Assembly (NCBI GenBank): GCA_013151865.1
Contig: JAADHN010000111.1
Coordinates: forward strand, 122,624-186,623
Length of the DNA stretch: 64,000 nucleotides
Reading direction: 5' to 3'
From: Kiritimatiellota bacterium
Lineage (GTDB): Bacteria > Verrucomicrobiota > Lentisphaeria > Oligosphaerales > JAADHN01
The notes under the pieces were generated by a model, which was not told the origin of the DNA, ran no database searches, and saw nothing but the letters and a program-made list of their open reading frames with translations. The translations under genes were made by a program, and so were the position numbers. Shown one piece after another: positions 1 through 11,326 of this stretch. Within the stretch, counting starts at the first letter, position 1; every line of letters begins with the position of its first letter.

Positions 1-608
1 GCCTGCAGAATTCGGTCGAAATCCCGGTGCGCAAACGGCTCGCCGCCCGAGAATGTAATTGAGAGCGTCCCCATTTCGGGCAGTTGCGCAAGCACGTCGA
101 GGGCCAGCGCCGTGTCAATCGGGCGCCCGGCGCCGCCGGGCGGGTAATAACAGTGAACGCATCGGAGGTTGCAGGCGGAGGTTACATCGATCTGCATGCC
201 GAAAACAGTGGGGCGTCGCTGAAAGTAATCGTAGAACCAGGCGGCGGAGTTCATCGGCACACCCACGGGGCCTCCGGCCGGCAGAATCACGGGAAAGTCG
301 TAAACGCGAGCGGACTTGCGAGCCAGTTCGTTCTCGTCGCGACCGGTCACGACGAATTTCTCGGCCTCCAGAATGGCGACAAACCGTTTGAAAGCAGCTT
401 CGACGTCAAAGCGGTGAATCCCCTCCAATTCCCTCGCAAGATCGTCGATGGCCGAGTCCAGGGTCCGCGGCGTGCGTGCCAAGCGTCGGAGATACGGTTG
501 CTCCGTCTCGTTGAAGAGGTGATCGACCTTGGTGCGCTGGTTCACCAGATAGGCGAAACCGTCGTAGAAGCGAGTGAACGAATCGTCATGCAGCTTTACG
601 AGAGTCAT
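1..608 (-). CDS. Radical SAM enzyme with N-terminal PqqD-like (RRE-type) peptide-binding domain; N-terminus complete, C-terminus runs off the left window edge
   Basis: Not in the supplied ORF track (no stop inside the window). Hand translation of the minus strand from ATG at 608 is open for all 202 codons: MTLVKLHDDSFTRFYDGFAYLVNQRTKVDHLFNETEQPYLRRLARTPRTLDSAIDDLARELEGIHRFDVEAAFKRFVAILEAEKFVVTG...VFGMQIDVTSACNLRCVHCYYPP...TLSITFSGGEPFAHRDF. CxxxCxxC (C146/C150/C153) and the GGEP motif are radical-SAM hallmarks. The first ~90 aa look like a PqqD/RRE domain (strands followed by three helices). Confidence 0.85.
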   Translation of the reverse strand, partial: MTLVKLHDDSFTRFYDGFAYLVNQRTKVDHLFNETEQPYLRRLARTPRTLDSAIDDLARELEGIHRFDVEAAFKRFVAILEAEKFVVTGRDENELARKSARVYDFPVILPAGGPVGVPMNSAAWFYDYFQRRPTVFGMQIDVTSACNLRCVHCYYPPGGAGRPIDTALALDVLAQLPEMGTLSITFSGGEPFAHRDFDRILQ

Positions 609-883
609 TCTTGTTCCGTTGTACTCGGGGCGCGGGGAACGCCGGCGGGAGAGGATCTCGGACTGAATCGACCGGGGCGGCTTTTCCTCTTCGTAGCCGT
701 CCCGCAGCGGGAGCGGGAGTGAAGGCTTGAACAACGGAACGCTGTCGAAAGCGCGGCGGCAAAAGACGGGAAAAGAGCGGACGTACCCGCGTCGGGCCCA
801 GACTTGCCCGAAGCCGGCGACGCGACGCCGTATTTCAGCTCAATCCTTCACATCGAGTCGGTGCGCCGGCCCATCGAACCGCG

Positions 884-899
884 AACCGGCGCACCGGTT
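884..899 (-). terminator. Stem-loop 11 nt downstream of the precursor stop codon (possible partial terminator or transcript stabiliser between precursor and rSAM gene)
   Basis: Perfect inverted repeat AACCGG-(4 nt)-CCGGTT. No adjacent U-run, so not a canonical intrinsic terminator. T-rich tracts (CTCTTTTCCCGTCTTTTG on the minus strand) follow about 100 nt further on. Confidence 0.3.
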
Positions 900-909
900 G
901 GCGGGCGGC

Positions 910-1128
910 TCATCCGCCGCCACCGCCGAAGATCGAAATGCCGCAGTTGGAACCGCCGTAAGACGCCCCGCCGCCACCGCCGCCGAAGATCGAAATGCCG
1001 CAGTTGGAACCGCCGTAAGACGCCCCGCCACCGCCGAAGATCGAGATGCCCCCGCCGCAGATGGCTTTCATCTCGTCGGCAGACACCGTAGTGTCCTCTG
1101 CCAAATCTGTGATCTTGATCCTGGCCAT
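910..1128 (-). CDS. RiPP/bacteriocin precursor peptide: double-glycine leader plus glycine-rich tandem-repeat core (72 aa)
   Basis: ATG at 1128 is preceded by AAAGGA 8 nt upstream. The supplied ORF 910..1323 is an upstream-extended version of this gene. Peptide: MARIKITDLAEDTTVSADEMKAICGG|GISIFGGGGASYGGSNCGISIFGGGGGGASYGGSNCGISIFGGGGG. Positions -12..-1 (VSADEMKAICGG) fit the double-glycine leader consensus LSxxELxxIxGG. High GC3. A C39-peptidase ABC exporter lies in the same locus. Confidence 0.85.
   Translation of the reverse strand: MARIKITDLAEDTTVSADEMKAICGGGISIFGGGGASYGGSNCGISIFGGGGGGASYGGSNCGISIFGGGGG
913..1050 (-). repeat. In-frame tandem DNA repeats encoding the precursor core (periods 57 and 51 nt)
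   Basis: 923-972 and 980-1029 are 50/50 nt identical. The third partial unit, 1031-1050, has 1 mismatch in 20 nt. The encoded units are GISIFGGGG(GG)ASYGGSNC. Confidence 0.9.
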
Positions 1129-1592: not shown

Positions 1593-2024
1593 TCATTCCT
1601 CTCCATCCAGTGCACCGCCGACGGCTTTGGCCAGCCAGTCCTGAAAAACCAATTCGCGGACCGTTTCCTTGACAGCCGGGGCGGCCATGTATGCCGCCGT
1701 GTCGGCCTCCGCCTCCAGCTTGTCCCGGAATTTGGAAATCAACAGGTTGGTTTCCAACCATTCTTCCCAGACCTCGGGGGTGAGACCGGAGATCTTGAGC
1801 CAAGCCATCGTGTCTTCCGCCTTGTTCAGTCCAGCCGCGGCGCGGGCCCCGTCGGCGGCCTTCTGCAACTCTTCGTCGCTGACCGACAAACCGGCTTCCT
1901 CGGCGGCGGCGCGGACCACCTTCCGTTGCACTACGTTACGCAGTGCAGTCGCGAACTGTCCGTTGATCCGCAGGCAGTTGAGCACCTCACCGACAGTGAC
2001 TTCCATCTCTTGGATTGCGGGCAT
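1593..2024 (-). CDS. SurA N-terminal-domain-like chaperone protein (143 aa), no PPIase domain, no signal peptide
   Basis: ATG at 2024 is preceded by AAGGAG 7 nt upstream. The sequence MPAIQEMEVTVGEVLNCLRINGQFATALRNVVQRKVVRAAAEEAGLSVSDEELQKAADGARAAAGLNKAEDTMAWLKISGLTPEVWEEWLE... aligns by eye with the N-terminal ~100 aa of the PpiC-type protein at 10092-10835 (shared SDEELQxAAD, TMAxL, GLT.E motifs). Confidence 0.7.
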   Translation of the reverse strand: MPAIQEMEVTVGEVLNCLRINGQFATALRNVVQRKVVRAAAEEAGLSVSDEELQKAADGARAAAGLNKAEDTMAWLKISGLTPEVWEEWLETNLLISKFRDKLEAEADTAAYMAAPAVKETVRELVFQDWLAKAVGGALDGEE

Positions 2025-2301: not shown

Positions 2302-3759
2302 CTACGGCATGAAAACACGCATCTCGCTGCGGAAATAAAAGATCCGAACAAGAACAAAAAGGTAATTGACCTGCGACCTCACATGGTTGAGCTTCGCGTT
2401 AAAATGGTCGGACTGAAACACCAACGTATCGAGCAGCAGACTGCGCCCGCCCCGGAGTCGGTCCAATTCCGCCTCCAAGTTCTTTGCGGTGATGTCCACC
2501 AGCTTCTCATCCAAGACGATTTCATCGGCAAGCCGTTTGAGTCTGACGAAGTCTTGGCTGAGCAGTTTTCGTATTTCATGTTCCCGATTCTTCTGGAGGA
2601 GCCGGTTCCGTTCCAGGGCGAGTTCGAGGGCCACGATCCGCTCTTGAATCGCCGTGTTCCCGACGGGCCAACTGAAATTCAATTCCACACCGATCAAGTA
2701 GTTCTGTGCGTCCAAGCCACTCACGGCGCGGACGGAATTGTCGTCATCGAAGCCGTAAACCGAGGCTTTCGCGGTCATGCCGAGACTTGGTCGGAGTTCG
2801 TCTCTGGCCTGCGTCAGGTCATAGAGCAATTGGTCCCCCTCGTTCCGAAGCGAGATCAACTGCTGGTCCCGCGCGCAAGCCAACCGGCAGCTCTCTTCCA
2901 ATGCGGGCATGGGCACTTGCGCTCTGATTCGTTCGAGATCGATGCGCGGCTTCACGTCGTCGAAAGCCCCGGTCGCGATTCTCGTGCGTACGGCGAATTG
3001 CAGTTGCTCAGCCAGGGTGCGAACCGCCTGCCTGCGCCTCAGGATGTCCTTCTCCTGTTCCAACACCACGGACTCAATCTTGTGCAGGTCGATGACGGGA
3101 ATGGCGTGCATTTCAAACTTTTCCTGGATGATCCGCAGGATTTCGCGCGAGTTTTTCAGGATTTCCTCGCCGATGACGAGATCTTGCCGAGCCTGGTAAA
3201 ACGCCAAATAGGCTTCCGCGACATCCCGAAGCACGGCGGATTCGATGGCCGCGCCGGTCTCCAGGTGGAAGCGCAACAGTCTGCGGGCCCGGGCGATATT
3301 CAATTCCGTGATGGTCCGCCCACGTCCTTTCAGGAGAGGTTGCGTGTAACTGATTCCCAATTCGGCTTGCGTCTCTTCGGCGCTGTCCGGAAACGAGAAA
3401 AGGCGGGAGGACTGGCGCGAAACCGTCATCCCCGCCGATGTTGTCCCACCGACCGAATTGAGTCGGTCGAGGCTCACGGTCCCGGAGTAGTTCCGCTGGT
3501 CACGGAGCCCGCTGAGCGCGAGTTCTCCATAGGTCCGACGGTCCCCGCTCACGTTTGACCGCAAGATCGGTTCGTAGATGGCCTGCTCCTCGACCAATCG
3601 GGCGGAAGCGCGTCGCACATCCAACTCCTGGACACGCAAGAGCTGATTCTCTCGCAACGCCTGTCGCAAGGCTTCGGCCAGAGAGAATTCCGGATTGCCG
3701 GCTGCTGCTTTGCCCATGAACACCGTCGCGCACGCGAAGAAAACCTGAAAACACGCCAC
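2302..3759 (-). CDS. TolC-like outer membrane efflux/channel protein (OMF); start uncertain (GTG 3759 or ATG 3717)
   Basis: Two-fold repeated coiled-coil/OEP-like sequence (LSLAEALRQALRENQLL..., TQPLLKGRGR..., LDLAQARDEL-type segments) of about 470-485 aa. Only the GTG at 3759 gives a hydrophobic N-terminus (ACFQVFFACATVFMGKAAAG). The part of ORF 2302..4212 upstream of that is Arg/Pro-rich junk. Confidence 0.8.
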   Translation of the reverse strand: MACFQVFFACATVFMGKAAAGNPEFSLAEALRQALRENQLLRVQELDVRRASARLVEEQAIYEPILRSNVSGDRRTYGELALSGLRDQRNYSGTVSLDRLNSVGGTTSAGMTVSRQSSRLFSFPDSAEETQAELGISYTQPLLKGRGRTITELNIARARRLLRFHLETGAAIESAVLRDVAEAYLAFYQARQDLVIGEEILKNSREILRIIQEKFEMHAIPVIDLHKIESVVLEQEKDILRRRQAVRTLAEQLQFAVRTRIATGAFDDVKPRIDLERIRAQVPMPALEESCRLACARDQQLISLRNEGDQLLYDLTQARDELRPSLGMTAKASVYGFDDDNSVRAVSGLDAQNYLIGVELNFSWPVGNTAIQERIVALELALERNRLLQKNREHEIRKLLSQDFVRLKRLADEIVLDEKLVDITAKNLEAELDRLRGGRSLLLDTLVFQSDHFNAKLNHVRSQVNYLFVLVRIFYFRSEMRVFMP

Positions 3760-4982
3760 GCGCCCGAATGCAGAAACGATGAACGGGAAAGGAGCCCTTG
3801 CGATACGAAGTGCGGTACGACAAACAACGAAAGACGGCGGAGTGCGGCGACCGTTCGAGGGGACAAACGGCAGGCGGCAGAGGCAGGAACAGCCCCGCCC
3901 GGAGAGAGCCGCGGACAGCGAACGGGGACACGCCGAATCTGAAGGACTTGCGCCTCCGACCCCGCCGTTTCTTTCCCCTGGGGCGCCGAAAGCGACGGTC
4001 GTCGCCAAGCCCCGACCGGGGCCGGTTAATCTGTCCGTGGCGTGCGTCATGAGGCGTCGGTTGGGTTCGGTGTCGGACTGGACGCAACCGGGCGTCCCTG
4101 CGGGTTCCGCGCCCCAGTGGGAACGGAGTACGCCTGATCGGTGGCATCCGGAAAATACTGGTGGCATTTGCGGAATACAAGGAACCCAACGCAAGTTCGA
4201 GCAACCGCACAATCCGATGGGGCAGGCCCCCCGTGAGGTCCGTCCGTCTCCAGGCCCGCTGTCGCGCCGTTTTGCACGAACGGTGTTCCCCGGCGCCGGG
4301 GGGGACGCGCCGTCAGCGACGCGTTACAAGTTCGAGTCCCTCGCATGCGCTGCGTACCTGGAGACCAAATTTGCATGAAGCATGAGCCATCTGCGCCAAT
4401 GCCGCTTTCAGACACCTTCAAGACATTGCTGCCGCCGCTGGCCGGGGCGGTGTTTCGATACGACCTCCTCCGGCGTTCGACGCAATGAGCCGGACTCGCA
4501 CAAACTGCGCTCCCTTGCAACGAAGTCCGTGAATGAATGAGACCCGACCCTTCTTATCTGAGACCGCAGGGCCCCCGCGAGCCTTTCGACAGAGTGGCCG
4601 TCCCATCGCGGGAGATGCGCCGGCGGGCATGTTCCAGCGCGGAAACCGCAGGCCTGCCGTCACACAGCAGCTGCCCGACGGTCTCGCCGCCCCGCGCTTT
4701 TGGAAGGGGGCGCGATCACTTGAATTCCGTCCGAAATGCAGCATACTTGAAAGTGCGGGGTCGGGGGTCGTATGCAGGCCGAATTCACCCCGCTCAGGTG
4801 CGAGCCATCTGGGTCGATGACCGGGCCGTAAAGACCGGAAAAGCAGCCGGGACCGTTTTTCGAGTCATGCAACAACTTGCCCGTGCGAAGGTTGCCTGCA
4901 CCCAGAACCGGCCCCTTCCAGGCTGCGAACGGGAACGTGCGGCACGAACTTGCAACCAGGTGTTAGAGCACACTGTTTTTTC

Positions 4983-7900
4983 ATGCAACACGCTGACCTG
5001 CTGTCTTTCATATCGGACCTCCCTCTCTTCTCGATCTACGATGAAGAGCGACTTGCCGCGTTCTTGGAGCAGATGTCCCTTGTCTCGTACAGCGCCGGGG
5101 AGGTGGTGTTCGAACAAGGCGATGCGGGGGACACTTTCTATGTGGTGTACAGCGGCCGCATCCGCATCCTCATGCGCCGGAACGGCAGCGATGTAAACCT
5201 CGGCGTCCTGCGCAAAGGCGACCACTTCGGCGAGTCTGCTCTCATCACCGACCACCCCCGCACTGCGACGGCTCGCGCTGTGGAAGACAGCGTGCTGCTT
5301 GTGGTCTCGCGCGAAGATTTCACCACCTTCCTTTTGGCGGAACCGGCACATCGCGACTACTTCGACAAGTTGATGCGCAGTGCGGCGATCGATCGGTTCC
5401 TCAAATCCACCTCGACCCTGGGGAAAGTGGGGCGCAACGAGGTGGCGGAACTGGTCCGGTGCTTCAAGCCGCAAACCTTTGGCGAAGGCGAGGCCGTATT
5501 TCGGCAGGGCTCAGTCGCCGACAAATTCTATCTGGTCGAAAGCGGGAAGCTCAAAGTCGTGCGCTGGACGGATCAAGAGCACGAAATCTTGAATTTCCTG
5601 CGCGAGGGCGACTTCTTCGGAGAGAAAGCCCTCGTGGAAGACACGACCCGGTACGCGGACGTGATCTGTCTGACGCCCTGCAAATTGTTTGCGATGCACA
5701 AAGACGACTTTGACGCGCTGATCCAGAAATCGCCGAAGCTGCGCCGTATCATCCAAGACCGCATCGAATCCTACAAAACCCCTCCTCCCATCCCCTATAA
5801 GGAGGTCATCAAGCAGGAGCTTGCCGCCCTGAAGGAGACGAAGGTGACGGCGGGGGAAGACGCCGAAAAGGCCGTGCGAGAGGACCGCGGCGCGGCGCAG
5901 AAAACCGCCCGTCGCCGTCGTTCCCGCAAGCCCGCCCGTCGGTTCCCTTTCATCCGGCAGTACGACGAGATGACGTGCGGCACCACCTGCCTTATGATGA
6001 TCTCCAGGTTCTATGGCAAGAACTTTGCCTCGGCCCGGTTGCGGGAACTGGCGCACGTGGACGTGAGCGGCGCATCGCTGGCGAACCTGGCGACGGCGGC
6101 CGAGCAACTGGGGTACACCACACGCGCCCTGAAACTGAAATACGACGGGCTTCGTTCCGTCCCGCTTCCCTGCATCGTGCACTGGCAAGGGTATCACTAC
6201 ATCGTGGTGCATAAAGTGTCGGACCGATACGTGTGGGTTGCGGACCCCGCAATCGGCTTGCGCAAGTACGACCGGGAGCACTTCGAAAAGAATTGGAGCG
6301 GCATCACCCTGACCCTGACCCCTACCGCCTCGCTGGAGGAACAGACTGACGACCGGTCTTCGCTGCGCAACTTCCTGCGGTTCGTTACCCCCCACCGGAA
6401 AACGTTGATTGAAGTCCTCATTGCTTCGGTACTGCTGAATATCTTCGGCCTGGCTACGCCCATCTTCACCCAGAATGTCGTGGATAAAGTGCTGACCCAC
6501 AACAATACATCTATGCTGAACATGCTGTTCATCGGCATGTTGCTGGTTTTGTTCTTCCGAATCATGGTCATGTTCGTGCGCCAGTACCTGATCGTCCACA
6601 TCAGCATGCAGATTGATCTGAAGATGCTCGTGGCATTCTACCGGCACATGCTCGCATTGCCGCTGGGATACTTTAAAGCTCGGAAGGTGGGTGATTTCGT
6701 CTCGCGATTCGGGGAAAACCAGAAGATTCGCGCCTTCATGACCCACACTGCCCTGAGTCTTATGTTGGACGTGGTCTTACTGGTGGTATACCTCGGAATG
6801 ATGTTTTACTACAACACCAAGATGGCCGCGTTGACGATGGTCTTCATCCCATTCGTCGCGGCAGTCACCCTGGTCTTCACGCCGATCCTCCGTCGACTCA
6901 ACATCGACGCCTTTCAAGCTCATGCGGAGGCCGATTCGCACTTGATCGAATCCATCACGGGCATCGACACGATCAAAGCCCTGCACGCCGAATCGCCTGT
7001 GCGTTGGAAGTGGGAAGACAAGTACATTCGCAGCATGAACATCGACTTCAAGCTGACCAATGCAGGCATGATGTTCAGTGCCTTCGGCGATCTGGTCGGC
7101 ACGCTCAGTGCGACCGTTCTGCTCTGGTTCGGTGCGCATCAAGTCATGGCGGGGGCCCTCACCGTCGGTGAACTGATGGCTTTCATGGCCCTGATGGGCA
7201 GTGTAATGGTCCCGGTCAACCGTGTGATCGGCGCCTGGGACGACATTCAGCAGACGCTGGTTTCAGTCGACCGCCTCAACGACGTTTTCAGCGCCAAGCG
7301 TGAGTTCGCCGACGCGGACGCCGGCCACAGCGGGGTCCCCCTGGAGGACGTGCCGTGCACAATCGAATTCAAGGACGTGTTTTTCCGTTATGGCGGCAAC
7401 GACGATCCATATATTCTCTCCAAGATCAACTTGAAACTCCCGGCGGGCAAATCCCTGGCCTTGGTCGGACGCAGCGGCTCGGGAAAAAGTACATTGGTCA
7501 AGCTGTTGGCACGTTTCTGGGACGTCACTGAAGGGCAGATTCTCATCAACGGCGTCAATGTTCGACATATCGATTTGAACTGCCTGCGGCGCATGATCGG
7601 ATTTGTATTGCAGGAGACCTTCATCTTCAACGGAACGGTTCGGGAGAACATTGCCTACGGCGAGCCGGAAATGGATTTCAGCCGAGTATTGCGAGCGGCG
7701 AAGATGGCCAATGCCCACGACTTCGTCACCACATTGCCCTTTGGCTACGACACGCGTGTCGGGGAAAGCGGCGTGCAACTGTCCGGCGGGCAAAAACAAC
7801 GCATCGGGATCGCCCGGGCACTGTATGCCGAACCCAGGGTCCTGGTCTTCGACGAAGCGACCAGTTCCCTCGATTCCGAGTCGGAGCAGGCCATTCAGAA

Positions 7901-8087
7901 GAATATGCAAGGCATTCTTGCGGACAAAACCTCCATCATCATAGCTCACCGTCTCAGCACAGTCCGGGATGCCGATGTGATCGCCGTACTGGACAATGGC
8001 GAGGTCGTCGAACAGGGCTCCCACACTGAATTGATGGAAAGCAAGGGCCTCTATCACTTCTTGGTGCACCAGCAGTTGAATCTGTGA
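4983..8087 (+). CDS. Bacteriocin-type ABC exporter: 2x cyclic-nucleotide-binding domain + C39 cysteine peptidase + TMD + NBD (1034 aa)
   Basis: cNMP phosphate-binding cassettes FGESALITDHPRTATARA and FGEKALVEDTTRYADVIC. C39 motifs QYDEMTCGTTC (Cys codon 5976-5978), HYIVVHK and ADPA. Six-helix TMD region. Walker A GRSGSGKST, signature LSGGQKQR, Walker B VLVFDEATSSLD, H-loop IIIAHRLS. ATG 4983 is chosen because the domain begins directly after it; no clear SD. Confidence 0.9.
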   Translation: MQHADLLSFISDLPLFSIYDEERLAAFLEQMSLVSYSAGEVVFEQGDAGDTFYVVYSGRIRILMRRNGSDVNLGVLRKGDHFGESALITDHPRTATARAVEDSVLLVVSREDFTTFLLAEPAHRDYFDKLMRSAAIDRFLKSTSTLGKVGRNEVAELVRCFKPQTFGEGEAVFRQGSVADKFYLVESGKLKVVRWTDQEHEILNFLREGDFFGEKALVEDTTRYADVICLTPCKLFAMHKDDFDALIQKSPKLRRIIQDRIESYKTPPPIPYKEVIKQELAALKETKVTAGEDAEKAVREDRGAAQKTARRRRSRKPARRFPFIRQYDEMTCGTTCLMMISRFYGKNFASARLRELAHVDVSGASLANLATAAEQLGYTTRALKLKYDGLRSVPLPCIVHWQGYHYIVVHKVSDRYVWVADPAIGLRKYDREHFEKNWSGITLTLTPTASLEEQTDDRSSLRNFLRFVTPHRKTLIEVLIASVLLNIFGLATPIFTQNVVDKVLTHNNTSMLNMLFIGMLLVLFFRIMVMFVRQYLIVHISMQIDLKMLVAFYRHMLALPLGYFKARKVGDFVSRFGENQKIRAFMTHTALSLMLDVVLLVVYLGMMFYYNTKMAALTMVFIPFVAAVTLVFTPILRRLNIDAFQAHAEADSHLIESITGIDTIKALHAESPVRWKWEDKYIRSMNIDFKLTNAGMMFSAFGDLVGTLSATVLLWFGAHQVMAGALTVGELMAFMALMGSVMVPVNRVIGAWDDIQQTLVSVDRLNDVFSAKREFADADAGHSGVPLEDVPCTIEFKDVFFRYGGNDDPYILSKINLKLPAGKSLALVGRSGSGKSTLVKLLARFWDVTEGQILINGVNVRHIDLNCLRRMIGFVLQETFIFNGTVRENIAYGEPEMDFSRVLRAAKMANAHDFVTTLPFGYDTRVGESGVQLSGGQKQRIGIARALYAEPRVLVFDEATSSLDSESEQAIQKNMQGILADKTSIIIAHRLSTVRDADVIAVLDNGEVVEQGSHTELMESKGLYHFLVHQQLNL

Positions 8088-8173
8088 GAAAAAGCCGCCC
8101 TGAAGAGGGGCGGCGCCTGCGGACGGAAGTTCCTTTCCTTCCGTGTCGGCTCAAACGAGAGGTACGTCGGTTC

Positions 8174-9523
8174 ATGCCGCCGGAGAAGAACACGACAAAT
8201 GACTCGCCGGAAGCTGCGGATGCGGGCATTTCCGAGGAAATGTCGTCGGAAAGTTTCTTGGTTACCGAGCAACTTCAGCGGGTTCCGAACCTGGTTGCAC
8301 GCGGGTTGATCTATATCGTGTCCCTTCTCGTGGTAACGATCCTGCTCTACACCCACTTTGTCCGGATCGACATTCTTTCCAGAGGGCAGGCAGTCGCTCG
8401 ACCCACGGCGCACAAGGTTCGAATTCTCGCCGACCGCCGGGGCTATGTCGACCGTGTGTTGGTGAAAGAAGGACAGCGAGTGGCTGCCGGCGACGCGCTT
8501 TTCGCGATCCGGTCCCGGGCGAACATTGACCGCGAAGCGCGCTACGCCGAACTGAAGATCACGATCCCGCTGAAAGAAGCTCACTTCAAACAGCGCCGGG
8601 CCCTAACGGCGGAGAAACTCCGAACCCTGCAGAATTCTTCCGCTTATCGCCGGAAGGTCCTCGCCTTGCGGAAAGAAAAGAACGCACTCGCCCGCGCCCG
8701 CGCCGAAATCGATATCCGTTATTGGACGCAACAGGTCGAAACGCTCGCCGAAAGCCTTGCCCGAGCCAGGAGCATGTTCGAAAAGAACATCACGACCCTG
8801 GAAGACTACAACGCCGCAAAGGGACGGCTCGAACACGCCAAGGCGCAACGGGATAAGTCGTCCAATGAACGCCAAACGTATCTGAAAGAAGCCGAGATCA
8901 TCGAAGCCGAAATCAAGGAGGAAGAAGCCAACCTTTCGAGTCAAACCGAAATCGTCCGGGGCGAAGGCCGCAGCATTGAGCTGGAGGCGCAAAGCACGTT
9001 GACAGCCATGCGCAACGAGATGAAGCTTTGCGAGGACATACTCTCGGTCCAGTCCCCCATCGGGACCACGGCCACGAAGCCGGAGGGCGTACTGACAATG
9101 ATCCGAACCGCAACGCCGGGCGCCATTTCGGAGTTGTTTGTCCGCGCCCCCGGTGCCTACGTGCGAGACGGCGACCTGTTGTGCACCGTGGTTCCGGCCG
9201 GCAGTCCCTTGTACATGGACATCGTCCTGGCCAATAAGGACATTGGTTTTATTACCGAGGGGATGCCGGTCAAGTTCAGGTTCGATGCATTCTCCTACAG
9301 AGACTACGGGGCGCTCGCGGGGCGGGTCGAATCCATCTCTCCGTCCGCCGTGGAAGACCCGACCATGGGGTTGGTGTACCACGTACGAGGCGTGCTCGAT
9401 CAACCCGGCTTCAAGATCGATGGAAAACTGTACCGGGTTAAACCCGGAATGACCGCCACAGCAGAACTCGTGACCGAACAAAGGACCTTGTTTTCTATTC
9501 TTGTCAGCAAACTCCGCAGGTGA
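8174..9523 (+). CDS. HlyD-family membrane fusion/adaptor protein of the exporter
   Basis: N-terminal TM helix (LIYIVSLLVVTILLY), lipoyl-like hairpin motifs (GYVDRVLVKEGQRVAAGDALF ... GAYVRDGDLLCTVVP), long coiled-coil middle, beta-barrel C-terminus. Immediately downstream of the ABC gene. GAGAGG lies upstream of ATG 8174. Confidence 0.85.
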   Translation: MPPEKNTTNDSPEAADAGISEEMSSESFLVTEQLQRVPNLVARGLIYIVSLLVVTILLYTHFVRIDILSRGQAVARPTAHKVRILADRRGYVDRVLVKEGQRVAAGDALFAIRSRANIDREARYAELKITIPLKEAHFKQRRALTAEKLRTLQNSSAYRRKVLALRKEKNALARARAEIDIRYWTQQVETLAESLARARSMFEKNITTLEDYNAAKGRLEHAKAQRDKSSNERQTYLKEAEIIEAEIKEEEANLSSQTEIVRGEGRSIELEAQSTLTAMRNEMKLCEDILSVQSPIGTTATKPEGVLTMIRTATPGAISELFVRAPGAYVRDGDLLCTVVPAGSPLYMDIVLANKDIGFITEGMPVKFRFDAFSYRDYGALAGRVESISPSAVEDPTMGLVYHVRGVLDQPGFKIDGKLYRVKPGMTATAELVTEQRTLFSILVSKLRR

Positions 9524-10091
9524 TCCCGAAAGGATCCCCAACAAGGCCGGGACGCTTCCCGACGGAACCGCCGCCGTTTTCCTGCACGACGCTGCAGTTG
9601 TCCCGCGACAACCTGAGCCGAAACACCAGGCACGCCAATTGTGGGACACGGCCCGACACCCCCGGCGGTGTCGGGAGAGTGATGTCGAGTTTTTATGCGC
9701 CTTGCACACTCCCCGCACAAGAGAACCACGTTTCTCGGCTCGCCCGGATGCACGCCCGCGGAAGCAGCCATATATTGAGCGTTGCGAAAGTTCCGTCGAA
9801 AACTGGCACAACTGGCCCCTTGATGGACGTCGACCGGGAAAAGACGTCGTGGAACGCGGCCGACCAACGCCCCGCAGCCGCAAGAACGGACTGCTTTGCG
9901 AACCGGCCCCAGGGCGCGGTCGAGCTGCCCGTGCGAAGACACCCCCTCCCATTCGGCCGCGTTCCGTCGAGGCGGAAGCAGCAGGACACAGACCGCTCAG
10001 GATTGTCGCGGCGATTGTGCGGAAGGCGCGGGTATCGCCCGTGCCCAGCTTGTTTCGAGGTGATCGGCCCCCCAACACCGGGAGATAAGTG

Positions 10092-10835
10092 ATGGAATTC
10101 AAGTATGCCCGTGGAAGCGTTACCAGCGAGGATCTCATTGGGTTGCTGGTGTTCTCGGGGCGGATGGACGCCTTGCTGAAAGAGGCCATCGAGAGGCGCG
10201 AAGTGCGGCGCAAGGCAATGGAATTGGACATCCGGGCGAGCGACGAGGAACTTCAGGCAGCCGCGGACCGGCTCCGGAAAGAGCTTGGTTTGGTCCGAGC
10301 GGACGTGACCATGGCTTTCCTTACCGGCTTCGGGCTCACGGTCGAGGACCTGCAGGAGTACTGCGAGTTCGAGGCGTTGCGGGAAAAGGTCCGGGAACGT
10401 CTGACGCCGGAAGCCAAGATCAACGAGTATTTTCTGAATTACCGTGCCGATTTCGACCGTGCCACCATCTCGATCATTACCGTCGACAGCGAGGAACTCG
10501 CCCGAGAGTTGATCATGCGGGTCGTGGAAGACGGCGAAGATTTCCACGAATTGGCGAGTGAGTATTCACTTGATGAAGGGACCCGCGAAAACGGCGGAAG
10601 GGTCGGCGCCGTCCCACGAAGCGCTTATTCGCCGGAAGTGAGCGCCAAAATATTCAACGCAGACCCGGGTGACGTGGTCGGACCGTTCTCGTTGGGCGAC
10701 CGCTCCCTTCTGATCTTGGTCGAGAAGGTGGAAAAAGGCGGGCTGACCGACGAAGCGAGGACCGCGGTCCGGGATCGGATTTATCAGGATTGGCTCCATG
10801 CATTCCTGCGCGCCGGGATCTCCGTCGCGTCCTGA
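10092..10835 (+). CDS. PpiC/parvulin-type peptidyl-prolyl isomerase with SurA_N-like N-terminal domain, no signal peptide
   Basis: GGAG lies 7 nt upstream of ATG 10092. The C-terminal half (ISIITVDSEELARELIMRVVEDGEDFHELASEYSLDEGTRENGGRVGAVPRSAYSPEVSAKIFNADPGDVVGPFSLGDRSLLILVEKV) has the rotamase/parvulin pattern. The N-terminal half is paralogous to the 1593-2024 product. Confidence 0.8.
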   Translation: MEFKYARGSVTSEDLIGLLVFSGRMDALLKEAIERREVRRKAMELDIRASDEELQAAADRLRKELGLVRADVTMAFLTGFGLTVEDLQEYCEFEALREKVRERLTPEAKINEYFLNYRADFDRATISIITVDSEELARELIMRVVEDGEDFHELASEYSLDEGTRENGGRVGAVPRSAYSPEVSAKIFNADPGDVVGPFSLGDRSLLILVEKVEKGGLTDEARTAVRDRIYQDWLHAFLRAGISVAS

Positions 10836-11095: not shown

Positions 11096-11326
11096 ATGGC
11101 AAGAATCAAGTTTGAAGATTTGGAGGAAGTCACGGCGACAAAGGCAAAGATCAACCTTGGCGGCCTGCTTCACGAGACAGCCGTGAACGGACGCCAATTC
11201 GTTGTCAATCGGCAGGGCAAACCGGTGTCGGTAATCCTCAGCTACAACGACTACCGCGACCTGCTGGCTGAGCTGGAGCGGTTGCGCCGAATACGAGGAC
11301 CCGACACGCTCCCATCTCTTCGGTAA
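11096..11326 (+). CDS. Phd/YefM-family antitoxin-like protein (76 aa), no adjacent toxin gene
   Basis: GAGGAAG SD. VTATKAKINLGGLLHETAVNGRQFVVNRQGKPVSVILSYNDYRDLLAELE matches the Phd/YefM N-terminal fold pattern (compare YefM [47 protein letters not shown]). Confidence 0.7.
   Translation: MARIKFEDLEEVTATKAKINLGGLLHETAVNGRQFVVNRQGKPVSVILSYNDYRDLLAELERLRRIRGPDTLPSLR

What the first reader, a model, noticed from the sequence alone, without database searches (positions are those of the whole stretch)
1..608. Key maturase is invisible in the ORF track: rSAM enzyme with fused PqqD-like domain truncated by the window edge
Seen: the minus-strand frame from ATG 608 is open to base 1 (202 codons). It contains CNLRCVHC (CxxxCxxC) and SGGEP, preceded by a ~90-aa domain resembling PqqD. 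The plus-strand ORF 84..722 in the track is its antisense shadow. Because the C-terminal part lies outside the window, I cannot tell whether it carries a SPASM/twitch auxiliary-cluster domain. That domain would separate thioether/crosslinking maturases from other rSAM classes. Further cluster genes may also lie to the left.
Basis: seen in the sequence. Interest (0 to 1): 0.75.

Follow-up and report, generated by a model that had tools for sequence, protein, structure and literature searches.

The report
Edge-truncated radical SAM peptide maturase
The left edge of the window holds the first 202 codons of a 480-residue iron-sulfur enzyme that modifies the small glycine-rich peptide encoded next to it; the enzyme type is well known, but this subfamily and its conserved target motif have not been characterised.

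Summary
The minus-strand frame from ATG 608 to base 1 is a real gene fragment of 202 codons, with CNLRCVHC at residues 146-153 and SGGEP at 187-191. It is 100% identical to the N-terminus of NOY81796.1, a 480-aa "radical SAM protein" from a Kiritimatiellota MAG, so the missing C-terminus could be read. It carries a full SPASM domain: C366/C374/C384, C424-x2-C427-x5-C433-x2-C436 and C456.

Residues 1-104 give no direct Pfam PqqD hit. They model at pLDDT 92-98 as a leader-binding RRE fold (TM 0.82-0.84 to the lasso-peptide RRE TbiB1). The full-length model is closest to CteB, SuiB, SkfB and PqqE. No curated NCBIfam cut-off is reached.

In six related loci the enzyme sits beside peptides carrying an invariant [N/H]-C-G-I-S motif. 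Two peptide classes carry it: export-type double-glycine-leader peptides such as window 910..1128, and a conserved ~90-aa peptide just downstream of the enzyme. A homolog of the latter sits on a contig of the same length as the source contig, so cluster genes probably lie to the left.

The chemistry is unknown; my best guess is a cysteine cross-link. The plus-strand ORF 84..722 is an antisense shadow. This is a new member of a known kind, of moderate interest.

The parts
1..608 (-). 5' part (codons 1-202 of 480) of the RRE-radical SAM-SPASM maturase gene; the remaining 278 codons lie left of the window
   Evidence: Open frame; Pfam Radical_SAM E 4.1e-10; 100% identical to residues 1-202 of P0156/NOY81796.1
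297..608 (-). N-terminal RRE (PqqD-like leader-binding) domain, residues 1-104
   Evidence: AF2 pLDDT 92-98, four strands followed by helices; Foldseek matches TbiB1 (TMt 0.82-0.84), the lasso-peptide B1 protein 6jx3, SuiB and CteB; Pfam PqqD matches homologs P0008 and P0017 above the gathering score and P0010 just below it
150..173 (-). [quoted passage not shown]
   Evidence: Seen in the sequence; invariant in 46- and 69-sequence family alignments
36..50 (-). SGGEP (the GGE SAM-binding motif), residues 187-191
   Evidence: Seen in the sequence; G188, G189 and E190 are invariant in the 69-sequence alignment; in the 46-sequence alignment G188/G189 are invariant and E190 nearly so
84..722 (+). 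Antisense shadow ORF (212 aa, TTG start); not a gene
   Evidence: No Pfam hit at E<=0.1; GC1 exceeds GC3, the mirror image of the minus-strand frame
910..1128 (-). Precursor peptide (72 aa): MARIKITDLAEDTTVSADEMKAICGG | GISIFGGGGASYGGSNCGISIFGGGGGGASYGGSNCGISIFGGGGG. A double-glycine leader is followed by a repeat core with two N-C-G-I-S motifs
   Evidence: ORF; 57-nt tandem repeat; homologous precursors lie beside orthologous enzymes in L006, L020, L021 and L022
859..896 (-). Inverted repeat (11-bp perfect arms, extended to 17 pairs in the fold) directly after the precursor stop codon; possibly a hairpin that sets the precursor-to-enzyme ratio
   Evidence: Sequence; local stem in the MFE and centroid folds. 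There is no U-run, and the intergenic region as a whole is no more structured than shuffles (z -0.68)
1593..2024 (-). SurA_N-like small protein, related below cut-off to the TIGR04500 'peptide maturation system' family
   Evidence: TIGR04500 at 2e-14, 53.6 bits against a cut-off of 180; 48% identical to the 137-aa protein that follows the B12 radical SAM gene in L021
2302..3717 (-). TolC-like outer-membrane efflux protein; the start is uncertain (the ORF runs to 4212)
   Evidence: Pfam OEP 1.6e-21; TIGR01844 1.5e-13
4950..8087 (+). Peptide cleavage/export ABC transporter: two cNMP-binding domains, a C39 peptidase domain, a membrane domain and an ATPase domain (ATG at 4983)
   Evidence: Pfam cNMP_binding x2, Peptidase_C39, ABC_membrane, ABC_tran; TIGR01193 at 530.5 bits against a cut-off of 523.85
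8084..9523 (+). HlyD-family periplasmic adaptor
   Evidence: TIGR01843 1.1e-43; Pfam HlyD_3
10089..10835 (+). PpiC-type rotamase-like protein, related below cut-off to TIGR04500
   Evidence: Pfam Rotamase families; TIGR04500 5e-22; syntenic in L020 and L021

Best explanation
Window 608..1 (minus strand) encodes residues 1-202 of a 480-residue peptide maturase with three domains: RRE, radical SAM core and SPASM.

Shown:
- Residues 1-104 form an RRE (winged-helix, PqqD-like) fold.
- The radical SAM core starts near residue 133, with the CX3CX2C cluster site (146-153) and the GGE SAM-binding motif (188-190).
- The part outside the window, read from the identical database protein NOY81796.1, completes the barrel and adds a full SPASM domain whose eight conserved Cys can ligate two auxiliary [4Fe-4S] clusters.
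- The enzyme always co-occurs with peptides that carry an invariant [N/H]-C-G-I-S motif and a shared N-terminal leader motif of the M-x-R/K-I/V-K-I/V-x-D-L type.

Inferred:
- The RRE binds that leader.
- The SAM cluster generates a 5'-deoxyadenosyl radical that abstracts a hydrogen atom in or next to the NCGIS motif.
- The auxiliary clusters carry off the electron.
- The product is an intramolecular cross-link, one per motif. Most likely it is a thioether from the invariant Cys to a nearby carbon, as in sacti- and ranthipeptides. I put this chemistry at about 0.4.
- The double-glycine leader of the window's peptide is then cut at CGG|G by the C39 domain of the cNMP-regulated ABC exporter, and the peptide leaves through the HlyD/TolC-like proteins.

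The confidence of 0.8 applies to the identity, architecture and substrate pairing, not to the thioether sub-claim.
For: Identity of the gene:
- Pfam Radical_SAM hit.
- 100% identity over 202 aa to P0156/NOY81796.1.

SPASM domain:
- Pfam SPASM at residues 366-427.
- C366-x17-C384 with G379-x4-C384, C424-x2-C427-x5-C433-x2-C436, and C456.
- These Cys are conserved in 65-69 of 69 relatives.

RRE domain:
- AF2 pLDDT is 89 for the fragment and 92.8 (pTM 0.92) for the full-length protein.
- Foldseek matches TbiB1, the lasso-peptide B1 protein 6jx3, SuiB and CteB.
- Pfam PqqD matches family members.

Class:
- The family profile hits SkfB 7.8e-34, PqqE 7.7e-26, SuiB 6.4e-22 and CteB 1.2e-17 first in the PDB.
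- The full-length model hits CteB, SuiB, SkfB and PqqE first.

Substrate link:
- The window holds the precursor 300 nt upstream on the same strand.
- Orthologs of 49-73% identity in L006, L020, L021 and L022, plus L004 (P0007, 51% over its partial overlap), all sit beside NCGIS peptides. There are 16 motif instances in 9 peptides.
- In L004 such a peptide is fused to the enzyme's C-terminus.

Export:
- The C39-ABC, HlyD and TolC-like genes are adjacent, and the first two are syntenic in L020 and L021.

Wider family:
- More distant members (37-42% identity) sit in RiPP clusters with Nif11 or NHLP precursors.
Against: - The chemistry is not shown by any computation here.
- No thioether-forming family model reaches its cut-off: AlbA 66/850, StsB 89/625, PapB 64/340.
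- The closest non-orthologous relatives (P0005, P0012) neighbour cores without Cys, so the wider family is not restricted to cysteine chemistry.
- Auxiliary cluster I appears fully Cys-ligated (C366, C374, C384, C436, by analogy with anSME). It does not show the open site that CteB is thought to use to bind the substrate Cys. This rests on sequence pattern and my recollection of the anSME and CteB structures.
- The C-terminal 278 residues were read from a database protein, not from the window.
- Leader-RRE binding was not modelled.
- Relatives carry additional radical SAM enzymes (B12 C-methyltransferases in L021/L022; PapB/SCIFF-like in L006/L004) that could be the ones acting on Cys.
Confidence: 0.8

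Rival explanations
1. The enzyme class and substrates are as above, but the reaction is not a thioether. Candidates are a C-C cross-link, cyclopropanation of the conserved Ile (as TigE does in TIGSVS repeats), C-alpha epimerisation, or a new transformation of the Asn-Cys-Gly unit.
For: SuiB and PqqE, both C-C bond formers, are as close as CteB and SkfB. Relatives act beside Cys-free cores. Ile and Ser in the motif are as invariant as Cys. TigE modifies an Ile in a short repeated Gly/Ser-rich motif (PMC10878394). Auxiliary cluster I looks fully ligated.
Against: The GYW motif that is strictly conserved in cyclopropyl synthases is absent from 69 of 69 family members, which have GYR, GYK, GYT or GYN instead. 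Proteusin epimerases have a C-terminal RRE and no auxiliary clusters (PMC8326336), which is a different architecture. An aromatic residue at position -5 is not conserved (L021 and L022), and the third residue after F or Y is Gly, which argues against a three-residue cyclophane. An invariant Cys is most simply explained as the reacting group.
Confidence: 0.35
2. The enzyme's primary substrate is the conserved ~90-aa peptide encoded directly downstream of the enzyme in relatives, and the double-glycine-leader repeat peptide in the window is a secondary client. The product would then have a conserved role, such as a signal or a peptide-derived factor, rather than being a variable bacteriocin.
For: The ~90-aa peptide overlaps the enzyme's stop codon in L021 and L022 and is fused to the enzyme in L004. 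Its last ~45 residues are much more conserved than the export-type cores. Homologs sit on contigs whose lengths match those of P0159, P0160 and the source contig.
Against: The window's own precursor is adjacent, carries the same motif twice, and is paired with a dedicated cleavage/export system. The two readings are not mutually exclusive. The position of P0269 on the source contig was not seen.
Confidence: 0.25
3. It is a non-RiPP SPASM enzyme of cofactor metabolism (NirJ/AhbD heme pathway, PqqE, MoaA-like), and the nearby peptide is coincidental.
For: The top NCBIfam hits by score for the full-length protein include NirJ2 (113 bits) and AhbD (104 bits).
Against: All these scores are far below their cut-offs of 381-500. 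Those enzymes lack an N-terminal RRE. No heme d1, PQQ or Moco genes are adjacent. NCGIS peptides are syntenic in six loci.
Confidence: 0.02
4. The plus-strand ORF 84..722 is the real gene and the minus-strand frame is the shadow.
For: It is the ORF that a mechanical ORF list shows.
Against: It has no family hit and inverted GC phase. The minus frame matches a database protein at 100% identity and a large family.
Confidence: 0.01

Closest known systems
CteB (PDB 5WGG/5WHY), thioether-forming RRE-rSAM-SPASM maturase of Clostridium thermocellum
   Same: It has the same three-domain order (N-terminal RRE, radical SAM barrel, full SPASM) and is the best Foldseek match of the full-length model, E 5.7e-16. 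Its substrate also carries Cys.
   Different: Only 17% identical, and the related SCIFF and PapB family models are far below cut-off. CteB is thought to leave one site on auxiliary cluster I open for the substrate Cys (recalled from the literature); this family has a fourth Cys (C374) in 65 of 69 members. The substrates differ: SCIFF-type peptides versus NCGIS repeats.
SuiB (PDB 5V1Q-T), streptide Lys-Trp C-C cross-linking maturase
   Same: RRE + rSAM + SPASM. It aligns across both domains of the window fragment (207 columns) and gives the best TM-score for the full-length model (0.58-0.65).
   Different: 17-18% identical. The substrate has no Lys-Trp pair, and the leader is of a different type.
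SkfB (PDB 6EFN) and sactisynthases AlbA/StsB
   Same: SkfB is the best sequence-profile hit in the PDB (7.8e-34). These enzymes have an N-terminal RRE and make Cys-to-C-alpha thioethers.
   Different: SkfB has a Twitch domain, not a full SPASM. AlbA, StsB and SkfB NCBIfam scores for homologs of this enzyme are 62-100 bits against cut-offs of 300-850; AlbA and StsB score 66 and 89 for the full-length protein.
PqqE with PqqD
   Same: SPASM radical SAM enzyme that needs a PqqD/RRE to bind its peptide. It is the best PDB hit of the fragment alone.
   Different: In PqqE systems PqqD is usually a separate protein. TIGR02109 scores 85 bits against a cut-off of 381. No pqq genes are present, and the substrate lacks the Glu-x3-Tyr pair.
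TigE/TvgB cyclopropyl synthases (PMC10878394)
   Same: rSAM-SPASM enzymes that act once per unit on short repeated motifs rich in Gly, Ser and Ile/Val (TIGSVS, TVGG).
   Different: The family-defining GYW motif is absent (0 of 69). The repeat motif here contains an invariant Cys.

Membership tests
Radical SAM superfamily (PF04055) | CX3CX2C cluster motif and a Pfam score above the gathering threshold | tested here: met
   CNLRCVHC at residues 146-153. PF04055 scores 40.5 bits (cut-off 29.5) on the fragment and 92.1 bits on the full-length protein.
RRE-rSAM-SPASM RiPP maturases (architecture of CteB, SuiB, AlbA) | N-terminal RiPP recognition element (PqqD-like winged helix) | tested here: met
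   There is no direct Pfam hit. The AF2 model (pLDDT 92-98) matches TbiB1 at TMt 0.82-0.84, and also 6jx3, SuiB and CteB. PF05402 matches homologs.
RRE-rSAM-SPASM RiPP maturases | C-terminal SPASM domain with the Cys set for two auxiliary [4Fe-4S] clusters | tested here: met
   This part is not in the window. It was read from P0156, which is 100% identical over the 202-aa overlap. PF13186 scores 35.3 bits (cut-off 21.5). The Cys are C366/C374/C384, C424/C427/C433/C436 and C456.
RRE-rSAM-SPASM RiPP maturases | Adjacent precursor peptide with a leader and a core | tested here: met
   The window's 72-aa peptide lies at 910..1128. Homologous peptides sit beside the orthologs in L006, L020, L021, L022 and L004.
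RRE-rSAM-SPASM RiPP maturases | SAM-dependent modification of the peptide | not testable with these tools
   This needs co-expression or in vitro reconstitution followed by MS.
Sactipeptide/ranthipeptide thioether synthases (NCBIfam AlbA, StsB, PapB, SCIFF maturase, SkfB) | Score above the curated family cut-off | tested here: not met
   For P0156: AlbA 66/850, StsB 89/625, PapB 64/340. SkfB scores 63.5-84.6 against a cut-off of 300 for homologs.
Sactipeptide/ranthipeptide thioether synthases | Conserved Cys donor in the core peptide | tested here: met
   Cys is invariant in all 16 motif instances.
PqqE (TIGR02109) | Score above cut-off and a pqq gene context | tested here: not met
   84.8 bits against a cut-off of 381.35. 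No pqq genes are among the neighbours.
Heme d1 / heme b radical SAM enzymes (NirJ, NirJ2, AhbC, AhbD) | Score above cut-off | tested here: not met
   NirJ2 112.9/500, AhbD 104.3/500, NirJ 79/515.
Cyclopropyl synthases TvgB/TigE | Strictly conserved GYW motif, whose Tyr ligates auxiliary cluster I (PMC10878394) | tested here: not met
   0 of 69 family members contain GYW. P0156 has GYR at the position following YPCSGFM. That this GY aligns with TigE's GYW is assumed, not checked.
Proteusin epimerases (PoyD type) | A radical SAM cluster only, with a C-terminal RRE (PMC8326336) | tested here: not met
   Here the RRE is N-terminal and a full SPASM domain is present.

The most novel reading that the evidence does not exclude
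The enzyme and its NCGIS-motif peptides define a RiPP family not described in the literature searched. One RRE-rSAM-SPASM enzyme would install a previously unseen modification on an invariant Asn-Cys-Gly-Ile-Ser unit. It would do so in two classes of substrate that share a leader motif: exported repeat peptides, and a conserved, translationally coupled ~90-aa peptide that is fused to the enzyme in one metagenomic contig.
Probability: 0.3. Interest if true: 0.7.

Novelty: new member of a known kind. Interest (0 to 1): 0.48.

Why it matters
It turns a half-visible ORF into the anchor of a complete peptide-modification cluster: precursor, maturase, cleavage/export machinery and probably more genes off-window. 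It also gives a clear experimental handle, because the enzyme is invariably paired with a short sequence motif. Radical SAM-SPASM maturases have repeatedly yielded new peptide chemistries, including thioethers, C-C cross-links and cyclopropanes. A subfamily with no curated model, found in poorly studied lineages (Kiritimatiellota and Myxococcia MAGs, and unassigned metagenome contigs), is a reasonable genome-mining target. For the scan itself, it shows that genes cut by the window edge are missed by ORF lists, and that shadow ORFs can stand in for them.

Tried and rejected
Attempts to extend the sequence leftwards:
- Scans of genome contigs and metagenome contigs with the fragment found no relative.
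- Exact look-ups of the precursor, of P0156 and of the longer JGI call P0250 found no contig. The left flank could therefore not be read as DNA.

Searches that missed or failed:
- The first word-index protein search missed the identical protein and returned only four generic hits. P0156 appeared only when an alignment of orthologs was used.
- A direct Pfam PqqD test of the N-domain found nothing.
- Alignments A1 and A2 were too divergent for locus scanning.
- The last metagenome scan, with A3, gave only 22-33% identical radical SAM enzymes.
- Motif and keyword literature searches found nothing on this family.

Hypotheses considered and rejected:
- Cyclopropyl synthase: no GYW motif.
- PoyD-type or EpeE-type epimerase: wrong architecture.
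- Three-residue cyclophane (triceptide): the aromatic residue at -5 is missing in L021 and L022, and the third residue after F or Y is Gly.
- GRRM glycine-rich-repeat system: the precursor hits no NCBIfam model.
- Cofactor-type rSAM: all scores are far below cut-offs.
- A terminator or attenuator between precursor and enzyme: there is a strong local hairpin, but no U-run and no overall excess of structure.

Also checked: no B12 radical SAM gene, second SPASM enzyme or ~90-aa peptide is encoded anywhere in the 64-kb window.
Full report
**Observation.** The minus-strand frame starting at ATG 608 runs open to base 1, giving 202 codons. It contains CNLRCVHC at residues 146-153 (window 150..173) and SGGEP at residues 187-191 (window 36..50). 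Pfam Radical_SAM matches residues 142-201 at E 4.1e-10. The best NCBIfam and PDB sequence hits of the fragment are SPASM-type enzymes such as ScmE, PqqE, StsB and MoaA, and only through the ~65 core residues present.

The plus-strand ORF 84..722, which a mechanical ORF list shows instead, has no family hit at E<=0.1. Its base composition is phase-inverted (GC1 0.742 > GC3 0.653). The minus frame has GC3 0.728 with GC2 lowest, like the well-supported ABC, HlyD and TolC-like genes nearby.

**Recovering the missing part.** The source sequence could not be found by scanning genome or metagenome contigs with the fragment. The first word-index protein search also returned nothing useful.

An exhaustive HMMER search found a family of 460-490-aa proteins that align from their first residue across query residues 1-201. 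There were 94 hits at E<=1e-10. All ten that I scanned carry Radical_SAM plus SPASM, and Pfam PqqD matches three of them, two above the gathering score.

A scan with the neighbouring precursor peptide found an orthologous cluster in a Myxococcia MAG, locus L006. Its enzyme is 50% identical to the fragment over 201 residues without a gap.

Searching with an alignment of orthologs then returned P0156. P0156 is 100% identical to all 202 residues of the fragment. It is NOY81796.1, annotated "MAG: radical SAM protein [Kiritimatiellaeota bacterium]", 480 aa, on a 208,253-bp contig. I take it as the full-length product of this gene. That inference rests on the 100% overlap, with the next-best homolog at 73%.

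P0156 has Pfam SPASM at residues 366-427, scoring 35.3 bits against a cut-off of 21.5. It has the complete cysteine pattern: C366-x7-C374-x9-C384 (with G379-x4-C384), C424-x2-C427-x5-C433-x2-C436, and C456, plus C279 upstream. These Cys are conserved in 65-69 of 69 relatives. The enzyme therefore has a full SPASM domain able to hold two auxiliary clusters, not a Twitch domain.

**The N-domain.** Pfam finds no PqqD match in residues 1-135 directly. The AlphaFold model built with the family alignment is confident: pLDDT is 89 overall and 92-98 for residues 1-100, with four strands followed by helices. Foldseek against the PDB returns solved leader-binding domains:
- SuiB across both domains (207 columns);
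- the lasso-peptide RRE TbiB1 (TMt 0.82-0.84, rmsd 1.7-2.3 A over 82-88 columns);
- the lasso-peptide B1 protein 6jx3;
- TruD, CteB, MibB, MccB and NisB.

Pfam PqqD is precomputed on a number of the relatives, and NCBI names one of them a "PqqD family peptide modification chaperone". The N-domain is an RRE.

**Class.** No curated NCBIfam model is reached by the full-length protein. The best scores are ScmE 116/400, GeoRSP 114/400, NirJ2 113/500, AhbD 104/500, MftC 94/265, StsB 89/625, PqqE 85/381, AlbA 66/850 and PapB 64/340.

The family profile hits SkfB, PqqE, SuiB and CteB first among solved structures. The full-length model (pLDDT 92.8, pTM 0.92) hits CteB, SuiB, SkfB and PqqE first, ahead of DesII, anSME and MoaA. 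That condition is not met.

**Substrates and context.** The window encodes a 72-aa peptide 300 nt upstream on the same strand (910..1128):

MARIKITDLAEDTTVSADEMKAICGG|GISIFGGGGASYGGSNCGISIFGGGGGGASYGGSNCGISIFGGGGG

It has a typical double-glycine leader and a core built from a 57-nt tandem repeat. Beyond it lie:
- a SurA_N-like protein;
- a TolC-like protein;
- an ABC exporter carrying two cNMP-binding domains and a C39 peptidase domain;
- a HlyD adaptor;
- a PpiC-like protein.

Orthologous enzymes were placed in context in five further loci:

| Locus | Enzyme | Identity to fragment | What lies beside it |
|---|---|---|---|
| L020 | P0157 | 73% | Same transporter set; a precursor with four [YF]GGSNCGIS[IV]F units |
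| L021 | P0158 | 56% | Double-glycine-leader precursor with G[ST]NCGIS |
| L022 | P0161 | 49% | Double-glycine-leader precursor with G[ST]NCGIS |
| L006 | P0155 | 50% | Precursor with YPQGNCGISIFGGGG |
| L004 | P0007 | 51% over 134 aa | See below |

Across 16 instances in 9 peptides the unit [N/H]-C-G-I-S is invariant. The aromatic residue five positions upstream is not.

A second peptide class appears directly downstream of the enzyme. It overlaps the enzyme's stop codon in L021 and L022 and is a separate ORF in L006. It is ~90 aa long, and its N-terminus resembles the same leader motif. Its C-terminal half is well conserved: GGFAHVGSI..GR.SY.KLTAVF...YPGSNCGISILG.

In L004 this peptide is fused in frame to the enzyme's C-terminus. 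Twenty such peptides exist in the protein database. Several sit on contigs whose lengths match those of the orthologs' contigs (9,796 and 5,024 bp). One of them, P0269, ends ...RYPGSNCGISILGTGA and is recorded on a 208,253-bp contig, the same length as the contig of P0156. This is indirect but good evidence that the gene lies just left of the window.

In L021 and L022 the next genes are a B12 radical SAM C-methyltransferase and a 137-aa SurA_N-like protein. The methyltransferase matches TIGR03975 at 555 and 505 bits against a cut-off of 282. The 137-aa protein of L021 is 48% identical to the window's ORF at 1632..2015.

L006 and L004 instead carry PapB/SCIFF-like or TIGR04463-like SPASM enzymes. 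None of these extra genes is in the 64-kb window. The enzyme studied here is the only one that accompanies the NCGIS motif in all six loci.

**Mechanism.** The following are shown: the domain architecture, the cofactor-binding motifs, and the exclusive co-occurrence with NCGIS peptides that share a leader motif. The following are inferred:
- The RRE binds the leader.
- A 5'-deoxyadenosyl radical abstracts a hydrogen atom in or next to the motif.
- The auxiliary clusters take up the electron.
- The result is one intramolecular modification per motif.

I favour a thioether from the invariant Cys, at about 0.4, for three reasons. Cys is invariant in the motif. Two of the four closest characterised enzymes (CteB, SkfB) make thioethers. 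Sactisynthases share this architecture.

Several points weigh against it. SuiB and PqqE, which form C-C bonds, are equally close. Auxiliary cluster I seems fully Cys-ligated. More distant family members neighbour Cys-free Nif11 or NHLP-type cores. Other radical SAM enzymes are present in the relatives' clusters.

Cyclopropanation of the conserved Ile was considered because of TigE and its TIGSVS repeats (PMC10878394). The family-defining GYW motif is absent in 69 of 69 members. PoyD-type epimerisation is unlikely, because those enzymes have a C-terminal RRE and no auxiliary clusters (PMC8326336).

After modification, cleavage at the double glycine and export through the C39-ABC/HlyD/TolC-like proteins follow from established knowledge of such transporters. 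TIGR01193 is above its cut-off.

**Novelty and verdict.** The protein is already in GenBank as an unnamed "radical SAM protein". The architecture is well known. The subfamily has no curated model. The motif string was absent from the full text of the paper library. I rate this a new member of a known kind. There is roughly a 0.3 chance that the chemistry or the dual-substrate arrangement is new. Interest is moderate.

Noticed in passing
L004 46..1491 (P0007), compared with L006 3476..3781 and L021 5667..5942: In one metagenomic contig the ~90-aa NCGIS-tailed peptide is fused in frame to the C-terminus of the maturase (...GGGFAHVGAIGPQGRETYQKLSAVFGPNPYPASNCGISILGAGAKSKPHKLLPDG). This is either a natural enzyme-substrate fusion or an assembly or frameshift artefact.
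   Followed up: partly
window 914..1050: The precursor core is a 57-nt tandem repeat (2.2-2.6 copies, 88-93% matches). The 73%-identical relative in L020 has four NCGIS units where the window has two, so repeat number varies between close relatives.
   Followed up: partly
window 859..896: A perfect 11-bp inverted repeat (CGGTGCGCCGG...CCGGCGCACCG) lies directly after the precursor stop codon. It forms the dominant local stem in the predicted fold, but no U-run follows it.
   Followed up: partly
window 11096..11326 (+); L020 9039..9242; L021 1227..1418: A PhdYeFM-type antitoxin-like gene lies next to the cluster in the window and in two relatives. No toxin partner was looked for.
   Followed up: no
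window 4950..8087: The C39-peptidase ABC exporter carries two N-terminal cyclic-nucleotide-binding domains. This suggests export is gated by a cNMP signal. The same architecture is found in L020 and L021.
   Followed up: no
window 1593..2024 (-) and 10089..10835 (+): Two SurA_N/PpiC-like proteins match TIGR04500 ('putative peptide maturation system protein') below its cut-off. They are syntenic with the cluster in L020, L021 and L022. Their role is unknown.
   Followed up: partly
L005 1698..2196 (Latescibacterota MAG): Two peptides share the MARIKITD...RIRGG leader but have unrelated cores without NCGIS. The leader type is therefore wider than this enzyme's substrates.
   Followed up: no
L006 364..1884; L004 1502..2911 and 2976..3902; L021 1633..3690 and 5950..8037: Relatives carry different additional radical SAM enzymes: PapB/SCIFF/nif11-like, TIGR04463-like, or one to two TIGR03975 B12 C-methyltransferases. 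The tailoring set around the conserved enzyme-peptide pair is variable.
   Followed up: partly
method note: Neither the single-sequence word-index search nor the 50%-representative search listed the identical database protein. It surfaced only when an alignment of orthologs was used as the query.
   Followed up: yes
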